The notes under the pieces: model-generated
What the model was told of the DNA's origin: nothing
The model's input: the letters and a program-made list of their open reading frames with translations, nothing else
Database searches by the model: none
Assembly: GCA_014905635.1 (NCBI GenBank)
Contig: JABVCE010000004.1
Location: 1,116,001 to 1,180,000, forward strand
Origin: Scenedesmus sp. PABB004
Lineage: Eukaryota
Direction of reading: 5' to 3'
DNA length: 64,000 bases
Program-made: the position numbers and the translations under genes
Shown here: one piece after another, positions 1-33,537 of the stretch
How positions within the stretch are numbered: the stretch's first letter is position 1
How the letters are laid out: each line of letters starts with the position of its first letter

Positions 1-3000
1 GCTGCGAGGTCGGCCCCCACCGTCGCGTCGCCGGCGGCGGTCAGCGCGGCCAGCGCCAGCCGCAGCCGCTCCGCGGCCGCGGCCGGCAGCGCCGCGCCCG
101 GCCCCTGGCCCGGCGCCGCGCCCGGCGCGGCGCCTTGCCCCCGGGCGCGGAGCAGCCGCGCCTCCTCTACGGCCAGCCGGCGCCGGAGCGCCGCCGCGTG
201 CGCGTCCTTGCGCTGCAGGCGGCGCAGCCGGTTGCGGGCGTGGCGATCAGGGACCGTAGCGCCGGCGACCTCCCGCTGCAGGCCCTTGAGGGGTTCCTTG
301 CGCAGACGCACGGCCGCCTCGCTGGCATCCACGGCGGCGCGCAGGCGCTGCACCGCCGCCTCGAGCTTGCCCAGCTCGCGCGCCCGCTGCAGCTCGCGCA
401 GGCGCGGCTCCTGGGCGCTGGCGTCCAGCAGCTTGGGGGGCGCCGGCGGACGCTGGCCGCGGCTGCGGCTGCTGCTGCTGCTGCCGCTGCCGCTGCCCCC
501 GCTGCTGCCGTCCAGCGCCTCTGCCAGCGACTCGACGGCCGCCGCGAGCGCGCCGGCCGACGCCGGCTCCGGGGCCGCCCCGAGCGACGCGGCGCGGCGC
601 AGCATCGCCTCCAGCGCCGGCCGCGCCGCCGCGCCCTGCTGGGCTGCCAGCGAGTCCGCGAGCCGCGGCGCGCAGGCAGCAAACATGTGCTGTTGGCCGA
701 GCATGACGACAAAGTCGCGCGCGACGCGGCGCGCCATGGCGTCGGCGTCGCCCTCCCGGTACGCCAGGCCCTCGAGCTGCCGGGCCAGCGCCGCGCGCCA
801 GGCGTCGTAGGCCGCGTCGTGCTGCTGCCGCGCCGCCGCGCCCGCGCCGTGCGCCAGCGGCTCCGACGGCTGCGGCACGAGCGGCGCGCCCCCTGCCTGC
901 GCGCCCGCGTCCGGCGCGCGCGGCATGCCGCTCCGCGCCCAGTCGAGCACGCGGCCGTGCTTGCCGGCCGCCTCGTCCGACTCCCAGCGCTGCAGGCCGG
1001 GCGTCGCCTGCGCCCCTGCCGCCTGGCGCGTGCGCGCCGCGCCGGCCGCGGGCGCGCGCGCCTCGCCGTCCGCCGCCGCCGGGAAGGGCTGCTCCAGGTG
1101 CAGGCGCATCCGCGCGAGCATGTCGCGCATCATCGCCATGGCCAGCCGCAGCCGGCCGGCGTCCTGGCCGTCGCCCGCCGCTGCGGGCACCACGCCCTCG
1201 CCCGGCTGCAGCACGCCCTGGCGCTCCCAGAGCAGCGGCGACGCGCTGTACAGCAGCGCCGCGCCGCCGGCGATGAGGCAGTCGCGCGCGGCGCGGCTGG
1301 GCGTGCCGGCGCAGCCCGCGGCAAACCACGCCTGCAGGGCGGCGGCGTCGAGCGCCTTCTCCAGGCGCTGGCCGTCAGCGAGGTGGAGCTGCATGTTGGT
1401 GTTGTACAGCTCCGCGAGAGGGTTGAGCAGGTGGTGGTGCAGGGTTCCGGTCACCCAGGCCGGCAGGGGCACGCGCTGCAGCTCGTTGACGCCGCAGGCC
1501 TGCTCCAGCGCGTGGCGCAGGTCGCTGGACAGGCCGCCGCCAACGCGCCGCCAGTTGCCCTGGCTAAAGAAGTTCATCAGGTCGTACACGAGCGGCGCGC
1601 CGCCGCACGCGGCCTGCAGGTAGCAGGCGCACGCGGGCGGCGGCGGCGCCGGCTGCTGGGCTGGCGGCGCTGCGGGCGGGGGCTGCTGCTGCTGCGGGCC
1701 CTGCTCCTGCGCCGCCGGCTGCGGCGGCGGCTGGCGCGTGTCCAGCCCGTACAGCCGGCTGCGCAGCGGGCGGGCGGGCGGGCGGGCGGCGCGACTCGGC
1801 GGGCGGCGCGGAGGAGGGGGCGCAAAGCGCGCGGGCGCGCCCCACCCGCGCGCGCGCGCACCTCGCCCCATACACGAGCGCCACGTGGTGCGCGTCGCGG
1901 CCGAGGATGCCCAGCCGGCTGTAGGCGCACACGAGCGCCTCGAGGTAGGGGACCACCTCTGGCTTGCGCACGGCGCCGCGCAGCGCGCAGACGCGCACGC
2001 CTGAGGCGGGCGGGCGGGCGGGCGGGCGAGGGCAGGTGAGGGGGGCGCGGGCAGGGCGCGGGGCGGCGGCGGCGCAGGGTGCCGAGAGAGCGGCCCGGCG
2101 GCCCGGCAGCGCGCCGCGCGGCGGGCACACTCACGCATGCCAGAGCCGGCCGCTGCCTTTTTGGCCTGCTCGGTCTGTTGTTTCCTGCGCTTGGCGAAGT
2201 GCCGCGGCAGCGCCTGCTGCTGCCGCCGCCCTGCCTTGTCGCCTGCCTCGGCCGCCGCTGCACCGCGCGCGGGCGAGCCGCGCCCCGACGCCTCGTCGGC
2301 GCCGCGCGAGCGCTTGCGGCGGCCGCGCGGCGCCGCCGCCGCGCCGCCGCGCGAGCGCGCGCGGCCGCCGCCGCGCGAGGGCGTGCGGCCGCCGCGCGTC
2401 GCGGCCTTGGCGCTGCCGCGCAAGCGCGCGCGGCCGCGGCCGCGGCTGCGGCGCTGCGCCGCGTCGGCGCCGCGCGCGCGCTTCGCCGCCGGGCCGCCCT
2501 CCTCCTCATCGCTGCTGGCCGCGGCGCTGCCGGCGGACCAGCCGACGCTGGCGGCGGGCGCCGAGAGCACCGCCGCCATCGCCGCCGCGCGGGCGGCCTC
2601 GCCGCGGGCCTGCGCGTGGCGGCGCAGCGCCTCCCAGTCGGCGCCGCTCACGGGCTGCGCCGCGCGCTCGGCGGGGTCGATGCCGCGCGCGGGCGGGGGG
2701 CCCGGGGTGCCCCCGCCGCTGCGCGCGCCGCTCGTGCCGCCGCCGGTGCTGCTGCCGGCGCTGCCGCCGGCGCTGTCGCTGCGCGCGCGGCTCGTGCCGC
2801 CGCCGCTGACGCTGCCACTGCGCGCGCCGCTCTGGCCGCTCTGGCCGCCGCCGCTGGCGCCGCCGCCGCGGCGCGCGTGCTTGGCGTCGTAGCTCGCGCG
2901 CTGCTTGGAGCGCCGCACGTCCTCGTCGGACGGCCCGGCCGCCTCGGCGCGCGCCTTGGACGCGTCGAGCTCCGCGCGGCGCTCCACCGGCTTCTCCCAC

Positions 3001-4372
3001 GCCGCGTCGATGGCGGCGGCGGTCGCGGCGCGGCGGCGGCGGCGGCTGCTGCTGCTGCTGCTGTCGCTGTTGCTGGTGCCCAGCGGCGCCGCGGCGCCGT
3101 TGCCCTTGCCGCGGCGCTCCTTGCGCCCGAGCTGCTGCGGCTGCAGCGGCTGCAGCGGCTGCAGCGGCTGCAGCGGCTGCCGCGGCTGGCCCGCCGCCGG
3201 GCCGCCCTCCTCGTCGCTGCTGTCCGCGGCGAGCTCCGCGGCGCGCGGCGCCGCCTCCTGCAGCCGCTGCTGCGCCGGCGCGCCGCGCGGCGGCTCGCGC
3301 ACCTGCTGCAGCTCCGCCGGCGCGCCGCGCGGCGGCGGCCTGCGTGCCGGCACCACCGCCGCCCAGTGGTTGAGCGGCAGCGGGTTTTGCGCCCCGAGCA
3401 CGGGCGCAAACTCCGGCGCCGCGGCGGCCGGCAGCGCGAGCGCCACGAGCCGGTTGCCCTCGCTCGCCTGGAACGCGTCGCCCTGCTCCTGCAGGGCGAT
3501 GAGGAGCGTGTCAAGGCTGTAGACGTCGGTCAGGAAGACCAAGTCTGCCAGGCGCATGCACAGCGCCCGCAGCTCAGCCTCGCTGGGGTAGCCCCCGGCC
3601 TCCAGGTCTCGCGCCAGCTCCTCCACGGCGTCCGCGCCGGCCACGCCGAGCACATCGCGCCAGGGCACGCCGCTCGGGTGCAGCTGGTCGCTCAGGCCCA
3701 GCTCGCGGATGAGCTCCACCGTCCGCGACCGCAGCTCGCCCGCCTGCTCGTCCAACATGTCCAGCACGTCGGGTTCGAAACTGCGCAGGTCGTGGGTCGG
3801 CTCCTGCAGCTCCGCCGCCTCCAGCATGCGCAGCACGGCAATCGCAATGAGGGAGAACCCGCACAGGCCGTTGGCGCGGCCGTGCACGAGCGCGTACCCC
3901 TTGTCCTCCAGCTCGCGCTTCAGCAGCGCGAGCTGCGCGCCGGTGCACGTGCCCGCCGGCGCCATGAGCTTCGGCGGCGCCCGCGCCGGCGCGCCGCGCG
4001 GCGCGGCCGCCGGCGGCTGCCGCTGCTGCGGCGCCACGGGCGGCGGCGGCGCCGGCGCCGGCACCGGCGCGTCGTCCGGCCGCGGCGCCGGGCTGCCGCC
4101 GCGCCAGCCGCTCCCGCTGCCGCTCCTGCTGCTGCTGCTGGGCCCGGGGCTGCCCCTGCCGCCACCGCCGAGCGCGGCTGCGCGGCCAGGGCCCGGCCCG
4201 CGCGCGGCGGGCAGCGCGCCGCCGCCGCCGCCGCCGCCGCCGCCGGGGGGCGGCGCGCGCGCGCCACGGTGCGCCACGGCGGCGACGCGTCGCTGGGTTG
4301 CTGCCCCTGCTGCGGCGGCGGCTGCGGCGGGCTGCGGCTGCGGCTGCGCCCGCCGCACGGGGCGGGCACGCC

Positions 4373-23775: not shown

Positions 23776-26700
23776 TCAGCGCGCGCCCGCCGCGCCCGCC
23801 GCCGCCGCCGCCGCCTCCGCGGACGTCGCCGCCGCGACGACGCCCGCGGGCAGCGGCGCAGACGTGACCGTCCCCGGCCCGACCGCAAGCAGCAAGGCCG
23901 GCAGCGGCCCGCTCGGCGCGCGGCTCTCGCCGGGCGTCGCGAGCGCGCTCGGGGCGTGGCTGTTGGCGGCGCTCAGCGGCGCCGCGAGCGCGACCTGGAG
24001 CTGGTAGTCCGTGGGCTTCTGCTTGCCGCGGGCAAAGCCCCCGACCAGCGAGTGCAGCCGCGCGAGCGGCACGCCGGGCGGGTCGGTCAGCGCGACGCGC
24101 GGCTGCGTCGGCAGCGTGTGGTCGGGCCGCTCCAGCGCGGTGGGGTCGTAGTGCGCGCCGTTGCTGAACTGGACCTCAACCAGGAAGCGCTCCGGGCTGT
24201 CCACGGGGACCTGGCGGGCGGCGCGGCCGGGCGGGCGCGTGGGCGCGCGGCGCGGGCGTGGTGGGCGCGTGCGCGGCCGCGCCGCGCGCCGCCGTGCCGC
24301 GCGCATCCCGTGCCGCGAACATGGCGGGTCGGCCCGCCGGACCTGCTTGTTTTCGTACATACGGAAGACGATGTGTGTCAGGTAGTCAAACTCATCGGTC
24401 GCCTGCGAGCGGGCCAGGCGGCGGAGCAGGGGCGGGCGCAGGTGGAGCAGGGACTGGGGGCCAGCTTGGCGCGGCGCGGGCGGGGGCGAGCTGAGCCCCC
24501 GGCGGCAGCGCCCGGCGGCGGGCCCCGCCGCGCGGCACGCACGTCAAGCAGCGCCTGGCCCTCCGCGTTGACGAGCGGCGGCGCGTGACCGCCAGCGCCG
24601 CCGGCGGGGGGCGCCGAGTCGCAGCCGCCGCTCGTCGCGCTCGCAGCGCCCGGCGCGCCGCCGGCCGGCGCACCGCCGGCCGCGGCGCCGCCGCCGCCGT
24701 CGGCCGCGCTCGCCGCCGCCGCCGCGGCGGACGCGAACGCGCTGCTGCCGCCGCCGCCGCCGGCGCCCGCGGCGGGCGCGCCCTCTGCGGCCGCCGGCGC
24801 CGGCGCGTCGCCGGGCGGCGCGTGGCCGTTGCCGCACGCGGAGGCGCCGCCGCCGCCGCCGCCTGCGCCGCCGCCGCCGCCGGCCGCGAGGTGGCAGTAG
24901 CGGAGCACGTTTATGAGCGAGTGGACGTGGCTCTCACTCGTGAAGTAGATGCGCGTGCGCACGTGGCGCAGCGGGCTGTTTACGTCGCTCGCGTACGTCG
25001 GGCAGAGCCGGTGCAGCGTCTCGGTCTCGTCGCCCTCGCCCTCCTGGCTGGGGCCGAGGCTGCCCACGCCCGTGCACACCTCGACCGGCCCGCCGCCGCC
25101 GCCGCCGCCCGCCTCGAGCAGTGCGGCCGCGGCGCGCGCCGACGCGCTGCCCGGGTCGCTGCCGCCGGCGCTGCTGGCCGCGGCGGCGGCGGCGGTGCCG
25201 CAGCTCGCGGAGCGCATGACCCCCGGCGGCGGGCGCACGGGGCGCATGCGCTCGTCGGCGAGTGACATCTCCCCAAACTCCGCGTCAAAGCTCTCGCCCC
25301 GCCCGTCCAGCAGCCTCGCGTGCGACGTCGCGCGGCCGCGGCCGCCGCCGCGCTCCGCCGCGGCCGCGCGCGCGGCGGCGGTGTCGGCCTCGATCGCGGC
25401 GGTGATGACGCTCTCCGCCTGCAGTGGCGCGGGCGGCACGGTGGCGGCGGTGCAGGCGAGGGCGGCGCGGCGGGCGCGGCCGCGCGCCGCGCGGGAGAGA
25501 GGGAGGCCCCCGCGCGGCGCCGCGCGGGCGCGCGTCGGGCCCTGAGCCGGGGCTGGTCGGCCGCCCGCACCTTCATGGAGTCGAGGTCGCAGAGCAGCTT
25601 GCCCAGCAGCTCGGCGCAGATCTTGCTGCCGATCAGCAGCTTGCCCGGCCCGTCCAGGCCTGCGACGCGCGCGGCGGCGGCGGCGGCAGCGGCGGCGGCG
25701 GCTGCTCGGCGCCGACCGCCGGCCGCGCCCGGGCGCGGCGGCGGCGGCGGCGCGCCTCACCGTACTCGTGCGGGACCACCACCGCCGCGAGGCGGCGCGA
25801 CACGGCGTAGAGCTCCTGCGGCGGCCGGCGGCGCCGGGCGCCGGACGTCGGCGGCCCTATGCACGGCTCCGCCCCCTCCGCCCATCGTGCAGCCCGCGCG
25901 GCGCGCAGCCCGCGCCCCGCGCCGCGCCCGCGCGCACGTGTAGCGTGGAGAGGCCGAGGTGGCTGCTGTGGATGGCGTCGTACTTGGCGGCGTCGTAGAT
26001 GTCCGGCACCTTGCTGCAGTCAAACTGCGCCTTCTTCTCGTTGTAAAAGCTCTTGAGCAGCTTGCGCCACCTGGGCGGGGCGCGTGCGCGTGTGTGTTCA
26101 AGGGCAGGGCGGCGTGGCGCGCGTGTGGAAAGAGGGCGCCGCGCCGGAGCGGGCGCAGCGCTCCAGGGGCCTGGGCGCGGCAGGCGGCGCACCGGTCAAA
26201 CATGAGCAGCAGGCGCTCGCCGCTGCACGGCCGCGCGCCGTCGAGGCGCCAGTCGTCGGGCGACGTTGTGAGGCTGCTGTAGCCGCCGCCGCCGCCGCCG
26301 CCCTCGCCGCCGCGCTCCTCGAGGCACTTCTCCCGCAGCTCGTCCACCAGCACCTGCACCGCGGCGCGCGGCGCGCGCGCGCGCGTGGGTGGGCGCCGCA
26401 CGGCGCTCGGCGCCAGCGCGGCGCGGCGCGGCGCGGCGCGGCCAGGCGAGCAGCCTCCAGCAACAGTCGCACCTTCATGAGGTCCACCAGGCGGTACAGC
26501 AGGCCCAGCGGGCGCTCAGGCATGGCCCGGATGCCCCCAGCGCCGCCGCGCGCGCGTCGGCCGCGCGCTGGCGCCAGCTGAGGCTGCCGTTCAGGCTGCC
26601 GGCCCGTGACAGCGACGTGGACGGCTGCGCCGCCGCACCGCCGCCGGCGTTGGCGCCCGCGGCGTTGGCGGCCGCGACCGCGCGCAGGTCGGGGCCGCTG

Positions 26701-29700
26701 CCGCTCGCCGGCAGGCCGGCGAGGCTGCTCTTGAGCGCCGCCGCGACGGCGGCGGGCGTGGCGGGCTCGCTGCCGGGCGCCGAGCCGGGCGTCGACGGGC
26801 GGGGGCGCCCGCCTCCTGCGGTCACGCGGGCGGGCGGGCGAGCGGCCGGGGCGGGGCGCCGTCACGAGCGCGCGCAGGGGGCGCGGGCGGCGCGCGACAC
26901 GGCACGCCACGCGCACGCGCGCGCGCTGGTCGGCGGGCCTCAGGTTAGCATGACCAGTGTTCGTCACGGCGGGGCCCCCGAGGGGGCCCCGTGGTTCAGC
27001 GGTGTAATGAGAAGGTTGTGGTCTGTCATCACCGGCCGCCGGCGCGCACGGGCAGACGCACGTGCATGCGCCATGCGCACGCACGCGCGCGCACGCGCAA
27101 CAAGCACACGGCTGCACGCTGCGGCGCGGCCCCAGGCGCGCGCGCACCCTGCTGCTCGGCGCCGCGCGGCGAGCCCGGCGGCGAGCCGTTGGCGGGCGTG
27201 CTGAGCGGCAGCGCGAGCTTGCTGCACATGCTGGCCGCCTTGTCGGCGTCCCTGCGAGCCGGCCGCGCGCGCGTGTGAGAAAGGCCGCGCCCTGGACCCT
27301 GGGCAGGCGCGCGCGGAGGAGGGCAAGCCCGCTCGGCGCTGCTGACTGAAAAACCCCTAGTCACAGTGGGCCCCCTCACCAGGTGAGGTGCTGATAGAGC
27401 GTGTTCTTGGCGGACAGTATGTCGTCGCTCGCGCCCTGCCGCGGCGCCGGGCGGGGCGCGGCCGCGGCGGCGGTGGGGCGCGCCCCGCGTGGGCCACGCC
27501 GGCCCTCGCCGCAGCGCGCGCCGCGCCGCGCCGCGCCACACCAAGCCGCGCGCCGCGCCGCGCCGCACCTTGCCGAACGCGTCGAGCATGCTGGCGTTCT
27601 TGGTGACCAGGCTGACCAGGATGGGCGTGAGGCTGCTGCCCTCCAGGTCCAGCAGGCCCTGGATGAACGCGGCCGCCGACATCTGCCGCGCGGGCGCAGC
27701 GCAGGGCGCGCACGGCGGCGGCGCGGCGGCGCGGCGGTCGGGGGAGCCCTGGCCTGACCGGACGGCGCGCCGCGGCGCGCGCCGCCGCCGGCCCCCGCCC
27801 CGCCCGCGCGCCCCGGCGACGCCGCCTCCTCGGCGCGGCCGCCGCGTGGGGCAGTCGGAGCAAGGAGGCGGCGGCGCTGGGGCGCGCGGGCGGGGCGGGG
27901 CACGCTGCCCCGCGCCGCGCCGCGCCGCGCCGCGCCGCGCCGCGCCGGTGGGGGCCTGCCGCGCCGGCTGAGCGCGTGCGCGCGCGGCCGCGTGCCGCCG
28001 TTGCCGCCGCTGTCCCGTCCTGCCCCCGTCCTGCCCCTCCCCCCCCCTCCCCGCCCCGCCCCGCGCGCCTGCACGCGGCCCTCGTCGCTGCTGTAGATCT
28101 TCATGTCGTGCCGGTACGTCGAGTGGAGGCGCAGGAAGCCGCCGCCAGCGGGGCCGTACCTGCGCGCGCGCGGCGGGCGGGCGGCGGGGCGGTCGGGCGG
28201 CGGGGCGGCGGCGTGCGCGGCGGACGGCGGCGTGCGCGGCGGGGCGGCGGCGGGCCCGGCGGGCGCGGCGCGGCGTAGGGCCTGACGGCGCCGCCCCTGC
28301 TGCTGCCTGCCGGCGCCGCTGCGCGGCCGCCGCGCCGCACCGCGGGTACATGCAGGTGCGGAAGATCTTGCCCAGCTCCTCAGCCTGGCGCGGTTGTCAC
28401 GCACGCGTGAGAGCGGCGGCGGGAGAAGCCCAGCCCCCTGCCACCGCGCGCTGCACGCGCAGTCCCCCGGCGCGGCGCGCCCCCGTGCGGCGCGCCGCGC
28501 CGCACCTGGGCACGGCCCGCGTGGGTGAGCACGCCGCCGTATTTGAGGATGAGCAGCAGCTCGGTCACCTCCGGGCCCTCCTCACCGCCGCCCGGCGCCG
28601 GTGGCGCCGCAGGTGCCGCGGGGGGCTTGCCCCCGCCGGGCTCGCGCGGCGCGCCGCCGCCGCTGCTCACCCGCGCGTCGGCCGCGCCCGGCGCGAGCGG
28701 CGGCCGGCCGCCGCCCGCGCCGCCGCCCGGCGCAGCGCCGCCCTTGCTGCCGTCGCCGGTGGGCGGCGCGGGCTGCTCCGCGGGCGCGCGGCGGCCCCAC
28801 TTGGTGGGCTTGAGCTGGACCTTGCGGTTGATGCCGCTGAATTGCCCGCCCTGGCCGCAGTGCAGGCGCACACGCACACGCGCACGCGCGGCAGCGGCGG
28901 CGGCGGCGTCGGCGGCGTCGGCGGCGGTGTGGGCACGGGGACGGCGGGCGGGGCGGGCACGAGCGCGGGGCGCCAGCACACAACGCCCGGCCGCCCACCT
29001 GCTCCAGCACAGTGCGCACGATGCGCAGCTTCTCACGCTGCTCCTCGTGCTGCGTGGCAGGGAGGGCGGGGGAGGGAGACAGCGGGCGCGCACCGCGACA
29101 GCAGAGGCCGGCCCGAGGCGGTCAGCAGCGGCGGCGGCGGCGCCGCGCGCGCGCGCGCGGGGCACGCAGTGCGGCCGCGGCGCCGCCCCCTCACCAGCTC
29201 CTGCTCGCGCTCCTCCTCGCTGCCGCCGGGCGCCGCGGCGCCGGCGCGCGCAGCCGCGGCCGCCGCGGTGCTGCGGGCCTCCATGCCAGCGAGCAGCGTG
29301 CGCACAACGTCCAGCAGCTCCTGCACGGCGGCGGCGCAGCACGCAGCCCGCGCGGCAGCGGTGGGCAGGGCGCGCCGCGCCGCGCGCCGCGCGCCGCGCC
29401 GCGTGCCCTTGCGCGCCTGCAGCTGGCCGGGGCTCTTGAGCTTGGCCTGCTTGCCCTTGGAGTCCTTGTACTTGTCAAACAGCTCCAGCAGCGCCGGCTG
29501 GGGCGACGGCGCGGCGGCGGGGCAACGCACGTCGGCGCGGCGCGGCGCGGCCCGGCGCGCGCAGGCCCGCCCCGCCGCCCGCTGCCTGCCCCCATCCATC
29601 CACCAGTCCAACAGGAAGAGCCGCCGCCGCCCCCGCCGCCGCTGCCGCAGGCACAAGCGCGCCTGCGTGACCGTGACCTTCATCTTCTGCTTGGGCGTGC

Positions 29701-32006
29701 GGTCGCCGTGCCGCACGACCGCGAGCACGCAGCGCAGCTCCAGCCAGCGGCTGCCGTCGCCGCCCGCGCTGCCCGCGTCGTCGCCGCCCTCGTCGTCGTA
29801 GCCGCCGTCCAGGACCGCCAGGTCCTGTGGCCGCGGCGCCACGCGCGCCGCGGCGCGGCGGGCGGGCTCGGGTCAGCGCCACGGCCAGCGCCGCCGAACG
29901 GGGGCGGGGCCAGGGCCGGCCGCGCGGGGGCGGCGTGCGGGCACACTCACCTGCAGGGACGAGACCTCATGCATGCTGTGCGATCCGTCGTCGTCGTCGC
30001 CGCCGCCGCGGCGCGGGCTGAGCGGCAGGTCATCGTCGAACGAGCCGGAGCTGGGGTGCGCCGCCGCGCCCGACGAGCCTGCGCCGGCCGGGCGTGGGCG
30101 CGCGCGGCACGGGACCGCGGGGGCGGGGAGGGCCAGGCGCGGCGTCCAGGCGTGCCCGCGGCGCCGCGGTGGCGGCGCGCGCACCCGCCTCCTCCAGCAG
30201 GCCGGTCAGCGGCGCGGGCGTGTTGGGCGCGACGGCGAGGCGGTGCGGCGCGAGCTGGCTGAGGATGATGCTCCGCAGGATGCCTGGCGACGACGCGCGC
30301 GGGCGAGTGCGGTGCGTGACGCGCGGCGCGCAGCGCGGGCGCGAGTGCGCCGTCGGGCGCGCGGCGCGGGTGGCTCCGGCGCCGCGCCGTGCGCCGAGCG
30401 GCGGCCGCGCCGTTGCGCGCGGCGCGGCGCGCCGCGCGGCGTGGCGGCGTGCACCCGCTGCGTCGTCGTAGTACTTGCGGCTGTTCTTCACAAACGACCA
30501 GCCGTTGACGTCGCACACGTAGCTGCGCCCCGTCTCGCTGCGCAGCAGGTCAAAGCCGCACACGCGCTGCCCGAAGGCAAGGCACACCTGCGCGCGGCGG
30601 GCGCGGGGCGCGCCGCACGGCGGCGGCGGCGCGGCGACGGCTCGTGGAGGGGCGGGGCACGCGTGCAGGGGGGCGCGCAGCGCGCCGCGCGTGACCCGCA
30701 CGCGTGCGCCGCACCATGCGCGCGATCTCCTTCTCCTGGGGCGACAGCAGGACGGGGAAGCGCACCTCCTTGCCTGCGGCGCGCGGCGCACGGGGCGCGG
30801 CGCGCGGCACGAGCTCAGCGCGGGCTCAGGCCGCCGACGGTCGCGGCGCGGGCTCAGCGGCGCGGCGGCCCGCCGCCCGGCCCGCACCGTCTGGCGTGCG
30901 GTTGACCTTGCCGTCCACCACGGGGCTCTTGCGCGCCTCCGCGTGCGCGTAGCGCGGGCCCACGGTGTAGACCTGCGCGGCGCGGCAGAGCACGGCGCGC
31001 GCCGCGGCCGCCGGCTCAGGCGGCGCGCGCTGCCGCCGCCGCGGCGCGCGGCGCGCGCGCGCGTCCCTCCCAAGCCACCCCAAACAAAGCCACGACGCCC
31101 CGGGCTCGACTAGCTAGCTAGCCAGCTAGCTCAATAACAATAACAGCAAGTGGCGCGCGCGCGTGCGGGAGGCGCGCCTTGACGTCGGTGCCGCCCGTGG
31201 TGAGGAACTCCTCGTAGATGTACGACCCGTCCCGGCGCACGGTGCCGGGGTGGTGGGGGTCGTAGTCGCCGCTCTTGTTGTCCACCTGGGCAGGGGGCAG
31301 GGGGCAGGGGGGGGGGGGGCAATGGACGTGGGGCGAGGGGCAAAACTCGCCCCGGCGTGGAGGGTTTTGAGGGAGAGACTGGGCCGCAGCGCCGGCGCCG
31401 CCCGCACCTTGCGGAAGAGGCGCTTCACGCCGCCGCCCTGCGGCGCGCGGCGGCGGTGGTGGGCGCGGGCGCGCGGTGAGGGCCTGGCCCCGTTTGCACA
31501 CACGCAGACGCCCACACACACCCGCACACACATTCACACATTCAACACACACTTCAACACACATTCAACACACATTCAACACACATTCAAGCACCCGCCC
31601 GCCCCGCCCACCATGGAGAAGGGGTAGTAGATGTGCACCCGGTGGTCCTCCCCGCTCGCGGGCTTTTCGACAAACGGCTTGTCGATGCTGCGCGGGGGCG
31701 CGGCGCGGGTCAAGGCCTCTCCGAGCCGCTGCCGGAGCTGCTCCGTAAACGACACAATGCGACGCAATGCGACGCAGCGCAGCGCAGCGCAGCGCAGCGC
31801 AGCGCAGCGCAGGTCAACGCACCGCACGCCATCCAGCTCCACATAGTCCTCGCCCTCCACAAAGCCGGGCGGGTCGGGCAGCGCCGGGCCGGGCGCGTCG
31901 CCGCCGCCGCCGCCCGGGCCGCCGCCGCTGGGCCGGGGGCCGCGCGAGAGCGACGACGCGAGCGAGCCCGCGCCGCTCAGCGCGCCGCTGCCGCCTGCGC
32001 GCGGTG

Positions 32007-32039
<33 letters not shown>

Positions 32040-33537
32040 TGGGCGCTCTCGCGCGCGGCCGCGCGGCCGGGCGTCGAGCACGGGGGTGCCAGCCCAGCGG
32101 CGGGGCGCGCTCACCGCCGGGCGGCAGGCTGCCGGTCGCCGACGCGCGCGCCGAGGGCGGCCCGAGCGGGCTCGGCGGCGGCGACGGCCGCGCGACGGGC
32201 GCGGGCGACGCGGCGCGGCTGCCGGCGCGGCTGCCGGCGCGGCTGCCGGCACGGCTGCCGCCGCCGCCGGGCGAGGGCGCGCCGGAGCGCGCGGGCGACG
32301 TGCCGCGCGGCGTCGAGGCGGCGCTGTCGCTGCTGGTCGTGAGCTCGTCCTCCTCCTGCGGGGGCAGCGGCTCGCGCGTGACGATGATGTGCCGCGGCAC
32401 CGGGATGGAGTTGTCCTGCGTGCGGCGGGGCGGGCCGGCGGGTTGGGCCGGCGGGTCGGGCCGGCGGGCCGGGTCGGCGCCTCCGCCGCTCCCCCGCTGA
32501 CCCCTGCCCGCGCCCGGTCCCGGCGCGCGCCGCGCTGCCGAGGGCCCCCGCCCGCCCGCCCGGCCGCACCATGAGGGTTTTGTAGACGCGGCGGCGGTCC
32601 AGCAGCACGTCCTGCATGTTGAGCTGCGGGCGGCGGCGCGCGCCCAGTGTGCACACATGGAGTCAGCCAACACGCACGTGCGCTGCGCTGGCGGCGTGTG
32701 CCGCTGGTCGCCCCTCCCTCCCCCTCCCTCGGTCCCTCCCGCTCACGTTGTTGACGAGGAACGGCGAGCGCAGCGCCGCGTAGGCCTGGGCCTTGGCCAG
32801 GGGGAAGCCGTCACTGTGCCACGAGAGCATGACTGCGGCCGGCGGGGCGGCGCCCCCCAGTGAGGCGCGCAGCACGCGGCCACAGCGTGCCCCTCCCCCT
32901 CCATTAGCACGCCCGCCGACGCAGCACGGCGCGCATGCGCGCGCACCGTCGCAGAGCGGCCACGCCTCCACCGGCTCCTCCAGGATCACCTGCGGTGGCG
33001 CGGCGCCGCGCCGCGTCCGGGGCCGCGCCGCGTCCGGGGCCGCGCGGCGCGGCGCGGCGCGGCGCGGCCGCCCCTGTGCCGGCCCCCGCCGTCGCTGCCC
33101 CGCCGCGGCGGCGCCCCGCCGGCGCCGTGGCCGCGTGCCGCGGGCGCCGGCGCGCCGCGCCTGGTCGCCAAAGGAGACCACCTCAAACTCGCCGCCCGCG
33201 GTGAGGCGGGCGAGGATCTCTGACATGGGCTTGGACCGCGCCTTCTTGTCCATTGCACACAGGCCGATCTTGATCTTGCTGCCGAGACCGTGCTTGCAGT
33301 CCGGCGCCTGCGGCGCGGCGGCGCGGCGTGAGGTGCGGGGCGGCGCCCAGGGCTGCCGCGCGCGCGCGCGGGGCGGCGCCCAGGGCTGCCGCGGCCGCCG
33401 GCCGGCGGCTGCGCCGCGAGCGGCGCGGGGCGCGTGGTGGCGCGCGCGCGCGTGCGCGCGGGGCCTGCAGCGCGGGGCCGCACCGAACGGCTCCGCGTCA
33501 TCCGCCCCCGCCGCCGCCGCGCGGCGGGCTGGGTCAT
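23776..33537 (-). CDS. VIP1: Inositol hexakisphosphate/diphosphoinositol-pentakisphosphate kinase (ATP-grasp kinase plus histidine acid phosphatase-like domain)
   Basis: [135 protein letters not shown]. More than 20 introns. Start ATG is 33537 or the in-frame 33501. Confidence 0.95.
26936..27037 (-). ncRNA. Intronic box C/D snoRNA, candidate U6 snRNA 2'-O-methylation guide
   Basis: Lies in an unusually long VIP1 intron (27147-26816). Sense strand: box C GTGATGA (27032-27026), D' CTGA (26999-26996), GC hairpin, C' GTGACGA (26967-26961), box D CTGA (26943-26940), terminal GGCC/GGCC stem. Locally much lower GC than the flanks. Guide GGTCATGCTAA is complementary to the conserved U6 sequence UUAGCAUGGCC with one G-U pair. 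Confidence 0.85.
31499..31590. repeat. AC-rich tandem repeat (CACACATTCAA)n in a VIP1 intron
   Basis: About 5 imperfect copies of acacacattca, directly visible. Confidence 0.8.
31773..31812. repeat. (GCAGC)n pentanucleotide microsatellite in a VIP1 intron
   Basis: gcagcgcagcgcagc... about 7-8 copies. Confidence 0.8.

What the first reader, a model, noticed from the sequence alone, without database searches (positions are those of the whole stretch)
26936..27037. Intronic C/D snoRNA predicted to methylate the U6 catalytic AGC triad
Seen: complete C, D', C' and D boxes with a terminal stem in a 332-nt VIP1 intron. The D-box guide GGUCAUGCUAA pairs with conserved U6 UUAGCAUGGCC (11 bp, one G-U). 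By the D+5 rule the target is the G of the AGC triad (G54 in human numbering), one base off the A53 targeted by mgU6-53-type guides. A second element, CUUCUC near the 5' end, is complementary to the adjacent U6 GAGAAG, which suggests bipartite pairing. The host gene (inositol pyrophosphate kinase) is atypical for a snoRNA. A link with the many GC donors is speculative.
Basis: partly seen in the sequence, partly recalled or inferred. Interest (0 to 1): 0.7.

Follow-up and report, generated by a model that had tools for sequence, protein, structure and literature searches.

The report
Algal guide RNA for U6 methylation
A small RNA gene hidden in an intron of an algal enzyme gene looks like a guide that chemically marks one base at the catalytic heart of the splicing machine, a mark known in humans whose guide has not been found, and similar genes turn up in several other eukaryotes.

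Summary
Confirmed in sequence: a single-copy C/D snoRNA gene (C, D', C', D boxes, terminal stem) in a 332-nt VIP1 intron, minus strand. Its D guide pairs 11 bp with this genome's own U6; D+5 falls on the G of the AGC triad (human G54). The best rRNA match is 9 bp. A metagenome scan that allowed both the A53 and G54 spacing gave 118 loci; 7 look like real snoRNAs (10 copies, at least 4 different host genes; one prasinophyte-like, one alveolate-like), all with G54 spacing, and 3 carry a second guide for U6 A70. This genome has separate A53 and A70 guide candidates, so this is not a slipped mgU6-53/snoR53Y. No Rfam family matches. Human U6 Gm54 is a known mark listed without a guide. Weaker points: no expression or methylation data; CUUCUC pairing to GAGAAG is no better than shuffles, and four homologues pair better with the U6 3' end; the host gene is not unusual; no link to GC donors. 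Verdict: an apparently undescribed, conserved family of ordinary C/D guides for U6 G54.

The parts
26931..27041 (-). C/D snoRNA gene including terminal stem (mature RNA probably about 100-110 nt; ends inferred)
   Evidence: single copy in genome
27034..27041 (-). 5' arm of terminal stem
27026..27032 (-). box C (GUGAUGA)
27009..27023 (-). 5' element: GACC (27023-27020) and CUUCUC (27014-27009); U6-complementary, partner uncertain (U6 37-42 or U6 3' segment 82-92, local numbering)
26996..26999 (-). box D' (CUGA); the region before it has no canonical target longer than 7 bp in own rRNA or U6
26970..26991 (-). 9-bp GC hairpin between D' and C'; absent from homologues
26961..26967 (-). box C' (GUGACGA)
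26945..26955 (-). D guide, 11 bp with U6 44-54 (human 51-61); D+5 base at 26948 faces U6 G47 (human G54)
26940..26943 (-). box D (CUGA), one spacer base (26944) after the guide
26931..26939 (-). 3' arm of terminal stem
26816..27147 (-). 332-nt GT-AG host intron; box C 115 nt from the donor, box D 124 nt from the acceptor
   Evidence: boundaries inferred from sequence
23776..33307 (-). host gene VIP1/PPIP5K (kinase plus histidine-phosphatase domains); extent approximate, 5' end not traced

Best explanation
An intron-encoded box C/D snoRNA that guides 2'-O-methylation of U6 snRNA at the G of the catalytic AGC triad (human G54). Steps: (1) it is co-transcribed with VIP1 and trimmed from the spliced intron (inferred from position and general knowledge); (2) it binds the C/D core proteins through C/D and C'/D' (boxes shown, binding inferred); (3) the D guide pairs with U6 44-54 and puts G47 under fibrillarin by the D+5 rule (pairing shown in sequence, methylation inferred); (4) the 5' element may add an extra grip on U6, at GAGAAG or at the 3' segment (open). 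It belongs to a family whose fuller members carry a second, D'-box guide for U6 A70; in this alga that guide is lost and a separate gene (L136) has it. The likely effect is fine-tuning of U4/U6 and U2/U6 helix stability rather than an essential step (inference from mild phenotypes of other U6 guides).
For: 11 bp/1 G-U with own U6 against 9 bp/1 G-U for 18S and no more than 7 bp elsewhere in 18S, LSU, 5.8S and 5S when pairing must start at D+2; duplex -17.6 against -10.9 kcal/mol for the 18S site. The metagenome pattern allowed spacers of 1 (G54) or 2 (A53): 121 matches in 118 loci, 55 and 66; TTCTC between C box and guide in 9 of 55 and 0 of 66; after collapsing duplicates and widening the element, 7 of 26 against 2 of 43 clusters, Fisher p = 0.022. 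Seven loci look like snoRNAs (L026, L042, L058, L075, L090, L114 with 4 copies, L131), all spacer 1. Features the pattern did not ask for also point to U6: D' guides of 10-13 bp on U6 60-73 with D'+5 at A70 in L075, L026, L114 (8 bp, one mismatch near the box, in L042), and a G extending the D duplex in L026 and L114. A strict family pattern matches the window and 4 of the 118 loci and nothing in 596 Gb of prokaryote genomes. Separate own-genome candidates exist for A53/18S (L015, 10 bp on U6, D'+5 = A46) and A70 (L136, 11 bp, D+5 = A63). Gm54 is a real mark in human U6 (PMC7960923, PMC5855946).
Against: No expression, processing or methylation data. The guide core was fixed by the search pattern, so its invariance is not evidence; my choice of the 7 snoRNA-like loci was not blind, and terminal stems of 5 bp or more also occur in 7 of 43 spacer-2 clusters. 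Arabidopsis U6 has no Nm listed at the equivalent G49 (PMC8053127 Table 3), and no such guide is among the held plant and Chlamydomonas sequences (file cut). The U6 sequences of the homologues' organisms were not available; the own U6 stood in. Looser, bulged rRNA duplexes reach -17.2 kcal/mol.
Confidence: 0.72

Rival explanations
1. The main or a second target is rRNA: the 18S site that shares UUAGCAUGG with U6 (G next to the snR53/snoR53Y adenosine), or an LSU site paired from D+4.
For: 9 bp/1 G-U with 18S in the same register; snoR53Y and Nc CD11 are dual 18S/U6 guides at this shared motif; an LSU site pairs 9 bp from D+4, and Arabidopsis SnoR1a is reported to pair from position 4. No separate guide for that LSU site was found.
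Against: The two 5' G's of the guide pair with U6 but face A's in 18S; -10.9 against -17.6 kcal/mol. The LSU site has mismatches at D+2 and D+3 and lies 66 nt before the G2815/2816 anchor (anchor recalled), where the part of the Arabidopsis table seen shows no Nm. Second guides of homologues point to U6.
Confidence: 0.1
2. It is a slipped or backup A53 guide of the mgU6-53/snoR53Y/snR53 kind that in fact methylates A53.
For: Same 8-nt guide core as snoR53Y and CrCD56; some C/D guides break the D+5 rule.
Against: A53 would be D+4; reported exceptions are positions 5 and 6 or 5 and 7 and use D' only. All 12 snoR53Y and CrCD56 keep a two-base spacer at D'; this family keeps one base at D in 7 of 7 loci; the genome has its own A53-register gene L015.
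Confidence: 0.07
3. It binds U6 but acts mainly as a chaperone that opens the internal stem-loop or holds U6 for other guides, with little methylation.
For: Several homologues could grip U6 at three places (44-55, 60-73, 82-92); the G-U wobble is kept in 7 of 7 loci although the pattern allowed G-C.
Against: A canonical D box and a fixed spacer are what a methylation guide needs; the window's RNA has only one strong U6 duplex.
Confidence: 0.07
4. A decayed or unexpressed copy, or a chance arrangement in an intron.
For: The short guide+D motif is at chance level genome-wide; the D' guide has no target.
Against: All four boxes near consensus, stem intact, 61% GC inside 82% GC flanks, 0 of 100 shuffles, only copy in the genome, homologues in other eukaryotes.
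Confidence: 0.04

Closest known systems
mgU6-53 (SNORD8/SNORD9), plant snoR53Y, yeast snR53, Neurospora Nc CD11, Chlamydomonas CrCD56
   Same: C/D guides that pair with the same U6 stretch around the AGC triad; same 8-nt guide core in snoR53Y and CrCD56.
   Different: They use box D' with a two-base spacer and select the A (A53, and 18S A796/801 in plants and fungi). This RNA uses box D with one spacer base, selects the G, and its 5' end fits U6 and not 18S. The genome has a separate CrCD56-like gene (L015). SNORD8/9 and snR53 sequences were not seen.
SNORD23 (vertebrate) and S. pombe sno530
   Same: Guides for U6 A70 (A64 in S. pombe); SNORD23 does it with box D', as homologues L075, L026 and L114 would.
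   Different: No G54 guide is reported for them; the window's RNA has lost the A70 guide.
Plant snoR26 (Rfam RF01286)
   Same: Weak collinear matches to L026 (27.4 bits) and L075 (14.2 bits): a D' guide on the U6 stem-loop and a G-rich stretch before D.
   Different: Below the gathering score of 47; assigned to Arabidopsis U6 C63; the plant copies shown lack an intact AGC-triad guide; no match to the window's RNA.

Membership tests
Box C/D methylation-guide snoRNA | Box C (RUGAUGA) and box D (CUGA) closed by a terminal stem | tested here: met
Box C/D methylation-guide snoRNA | Internal D' and C' boxes | tested here: met
   CUGA and GUGACGA
Box C/D methylation-guide snoRNA | About 10 bp or more of complementarity to a target directly upstream of D or D' | tested here: met
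   11 bp, one G-U, with own U6
Box C/D methylation-guide snoRNA | Conservation of boxes and guide in other organisms | tested here: met
   7 snoRNA-like loci among 118
Box C/D methylation-guide snoRNA | Stable processed RNA bound to fibrillarin, Nop56, Nop58, Snu13 | not testable with these tools
   needs RNA and protein data
Box C/D methylation-guide snoRNA | 2'-O-methyl at the D+5 position that depends on the RNA | not testable with these tools
   needs RiboMeth-seq and knockout
mgU6-53 / snoR53Y / snR53 (A53 guides) | Fifth base upstream of the box faces the A of the triad | tested here: not met
   faces the G
mgU6-53 / snoR53Y / snR53 (A53 guides) | Guide at box D' | tested here: not met
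   guide at box D; snoR53Y, CrCD56, Nc CD11 use D'
mgU6-53 / snoR53Y / snR53 (A53 guides) | Match to the Rfam model | tested here: not met
   0 matches at gathering score in the window; no C/D family among 8 matches at E up to 10
snoR26 (RF01286) | Score over the gathering threshold and D' guide on U6 C68 | tested here: not met
   27.4 and 14.2 bits against 47 for homologues, none for the window
SNORD23 | D' guide for U6 A70 | tested here: not met
   absent in the window's RNA; present in homologues L075, L026, L114
SNORD23 | Sequence homology outside the guide | not tested
   sequence not held; only absence from the weak Rfam list for L075
LARP7-dependent U6 guides | LARP7 binding | not testable with these tools
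   known for SNORD7, 8, 9, 10, 67, 94

The most novel reading that the evidence does not exclude
This is the surviving half of an ancient, pan-eukaryotic double guide that clamps U6 at up to three places and methylates both G54 (box D) and A70 (box D'), the two catalytic-core marks listed without guides in humans in 2023; SNORD23 and plant snoR26 would be its eroded descendants, and the missing human Gm54 guide would lie in the D-proximal part of SNORD23 or in an unannotated relative findable with this family's model.
Probability: 0.2. Interest if true: 0.75.

Novelty: new member of a known kind. Interest (0 to 1): 0.55.

Why it matters
G54 is the middle base of the AGC triad at the spliceosome's catalytic centre. 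[quoted passage not shown] A dedicated single-copy guide in an alga makes the role of this one methyl group testable by a clean intron edit, and the family gives a template for seeking the vertebrate guide. It may not transfer to humans: an A53 guide at D' could also reach G54 as position 6, as U24 does on rRNA (inference). The mechanism itself is the ordinary C/D one.

Tried and rejected
Rfam: 0 matches at gathering score in the window; only chance-level matches locally. Sequencing runs: no RNA holder listed, so no reads were laid; no evidence either way. Viral contigs: 3 matches, none snoRNA-like. Prokaryote genomes: 0 with the strict pattern. L064 was dropped from the family: the match lies inside a 262-codon phage-like reading frame; it remains inside the 9-of-55 and 7-of-26 counts. 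The model R1 found no further members among the 118 loci: non-members scored at most 21 bits against 48-61 for members, which match by construction; a model search of the own genome was not available, so paralogues were sought by DNA and pattern only. One search had a miscounted spacer and was repeated. My notebook calls the LSU site 'G2791-like'; one search shows that this recollection was wrong. Two searches for a separate guide of that LSU site found none (the one non-rRNA match is in coding sequence). Four other genomic places with the 11-nt target motif show no RNA-gene features. The D' region has no canonical target (7 bp at best). GC-donor link rejected: G54 is not among the U6 bases that read the 5' splice site (general knowledge) and the family occurs beside GT introns in other organisms. 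Earlier-findings look-ups returned nothing. Literature: 10 searches; none showed a G54 guide; (mgU6-54, U6-G54, U6-Gm54, MeU6-G, U6-Gm) gave 0 papers. The library lacks most subscription papers: Chen 2008 on Chlamydomonas snoRNAs, Ganot 1999, Krogh 2017, Hasler 2020 and Wang 2020 were not read, the PMC8053127 supplement was cut before its snRNA and guide tables, the PMC5122169 sequence file was cut, and the preprint's supplements were not seen; any of these could hold a G54 guide.

Full report
The observation. On the minus strand there are box C (27032-27026), D' (26999-26996), C' (26967-26961) and D (26943-26940), closed by an 8-bp stem with one bulge; the fold beats 200 of 200 shuffles, largely through a GC hairpin between D' and C'. 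The body is 61% GC in 82% GC intron flanks. It lies in a 332-nt GT-AG intron (27147-26816) of a gene whose exons match PPIP5K2_N and His_Phos_2, i.e. VIP1 (3 of 6 exons gave a family). It is single-copy and matches no Rfam family. The full pattern occurs once in the window and in 0 of 100 shuffles. The short guide+D motif alone is at chance level in the genome. The organism appears to be a very GC-rich green alga (inferred from a Chlamydomonas-type snoRNA orthologue).

The target. The genome has one full U6 gene and one 3' fragment. The D guide pairs with U6 44-54 over 11 bp with one G-U and D+5 faces G47. An offset of 7 maps 10 of 10 modified human U6 residues (list) onto identical bases, so this is human G54. 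With pairing required from D+2, the next best are 9 bp on 18S, at the motif shared with U6, and 7 bp; energies are -17.6 and -10.9 kcal/mol. Only 1 of 1000 shuffled guides binds U6 as well. Bulged rRNA duplexes of -17.2 and -16.2 exist but do not fit the guide geometry, and one LSU site pairs 9 bp from D+4.

Not a slipped A53 guide. All 12 plant snoR53Y sequences and Chlamydomonas CrCD56 in the supplement of PMC5122169 carry the same core at D' with two spacer bases; snoR53Y is assigned to Arabidopsis U6 A48 and 18S A801 and Nc CD11 to the like pair in Neurospora. This genome has its own CrCD56-like gene, L015, in an intron, with D'+5 on U6 A46, and a further intronic C/D candidate, L136, with D+5 on U6 A63, human A70. 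The G54 register is therefore a gene of its own.

Homologues. Of 121 matches, 55 have one spacer base and 66 two; most are chance matches in bacterial genes. TTCTC lies between C box and guide in 9 of 55 and 0 of 66; after collapsing near-duplicates and widening the element, 7 of 26 against 2 of 43 clusters, p = 0.022 (these counts include the chance locus L064 and count L114 twice). By reading, not blind, 7 loci are snoRNA-like, 10 copies, all with one spacer base and all with the G-U wobble. Hosts: an SNF2-type helicase intron (L058), USP5/UBP14-like introns (L042; L131 by reading only, no Pfam match), an unidentified gene (L075), an SF3B4 intron (L026); no host was seen for L090 and L114, the latter with 4 tandem copies. 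The host exon of L042 has Cymbomonas as best named close match (90%) and that of L026 coccidian apicomplexans (66-70%, with an unnamed 92% match); these lineages rest on one exon each. L058 and L131 look green-algal to me; not tested. L075, L026 and L114 carry a D' guide of 10-13 bp on U6 with D'+5 at A70, L042 a weaker one; L131 has a 14-bp D' match to 18S instead. A strict family pattern finds the window and 4 of the 118 loci and nothing in 596 Gb of prokaryote genomes. The guide core was fixed by the pattern and is no evidence of conservation; the spacer, the wobble, the 5' element and the second U6 guide were not fixed.

The second element. CUUCUC can pair with U6 GAGAAG (-8.8), but the whole 5' region binds U6 no better than 591 of 1000 shuffles and neither co-fold forms the pair. 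It is kept in some form in 6 of 7 homologous loci. Against the own U6, the window, L058 and L131 prefer GAGAAG (-8.4 to -10.0 against -4.8 to -8.7), whereas L042, L075, L026 and L114 prefer the U6 3' segment (-11.1 to -12.9 against -4.2 to -6.9), in line with their A70 duplex; L090 is weak on both. Extra pairing next to the site is common in C/D guides (45 of 104 Arabidopsis sites), so it would not be new. The partner is open.

Host gene and GC donors. L015 shares its host, a PurL-like gene (name from my reading of the translation; no Pfam match), with SNORD24 and Z223, and homologues change host, so VIP1 is not remarkable. Five of 32 donors read by eye are GC; 8 of my coordinates were one base off a GT. 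Nothing links them to this RNA.

Mechanism. Shown: boxes, stem, intron position, U6 complementarity, register, conservation. Inferred: release from the intron, snoRNP assembly, methylation of G47 by the D+5 rule. Loss of other U6 guides gives mild splicing effects, so fine-tuning is the likely role.

What is known. [quoted passage not shown] Arabidopsis lists no Nm at G49. Ten searches showed no G54 guide. For all 13 papers opened I saw term-matched passages only, not whole texts: PMC7960923, PMC8599867, PMC11863803, PMC5855946, PMC8053127 (plus rows of a cut supplement), PMC5122169 (plus matches in its supplements, the sequence file being cut), PMC10484740, PMC3884663, PMC6298559, PMC2780460, PMC6984369, PMC11019748 and the preprint. 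Key subscription papers were not available, so 'undescribed' is provisional. Human Gm54 could also come from an A53 guide acting at D'+6, as U24 does (inference).

Verdict. A real-looking, conserved, apparently uncatalogued family of C/D guides for U6 G54, often paired with an A70 guide; ordinary in mechanism, useful because it gives a handle on an orphan mark in the spliceosome's catalytic triad. Confidence 0.72, interest 0.55.

Noticed in passing
L015:1470-1575 (G000:C7, about 387950-388050): CrCD56/snR53-like C/D snoRNA: D' guide for 18S and U6 A53, D guide of 14 bp on LSU; in an intron of a PurL-like gene whose later introns hold Z223 (L015:2151-2241) and SNORD24 (L015:2574-2657).
   Followed up: partly
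L136:1495-1620, minus strand (G000:C1, about 750283-750408): Intronic C/D snoRNA candidate whose D guide pairs 11 bp with U6 and selects A63 (human A70); not scanned against Rfam.
   Followed up: partly
L014:1486-1600 (G000:C4, about 590890-591000): AT-rich element with a C-like box and two stretches antisense to U6 (about 44-51 and 33-43) in collinear order, a closing stem, but no canonical D box; no Rfam match, fold z -1.6. Unexplained; possibly another U6-directed RNA.
   Followed up: partly
window 26530-26640, minus strand: The VIP1 reading frame changes between 26638 and about 26535: either a 71-nt intron (26638-26568) or a one-base error in a run of five G's near 26538.
   Followed up: no
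L008:5213-5331 and 799-4119; L004: A 5S rRNA gene lies inside the rDNA repeat on the same strand; the 18S gene is 3.3 kb with at least two group I introns and the LSU gene 4.2 kb.
   Followed up: no
L001:1501-1610; L002:1501-1557: The only full U6 gene is not followed directly by a run of four or more T's; a 3' fragment of U6 lies 3.2 kb away.
   Followed up: no
L114:300-1101: Four tandem copies of the double U6 guide (A70 and G54) within 0.8 kb of AT-rich DNA; organism unknown.
   Followed up: partly
L026:1992-2087, minus strand: The double U6 guide sits in the first intron of SF3B4, itself a spliceosome gene, in an alveolate-like contig.
   Followed up: partly
window 24342-33160, minus strand: Five of 32 VIP1 donors read by eye are GC, all after CAG or AAG.
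   Followed up: partly
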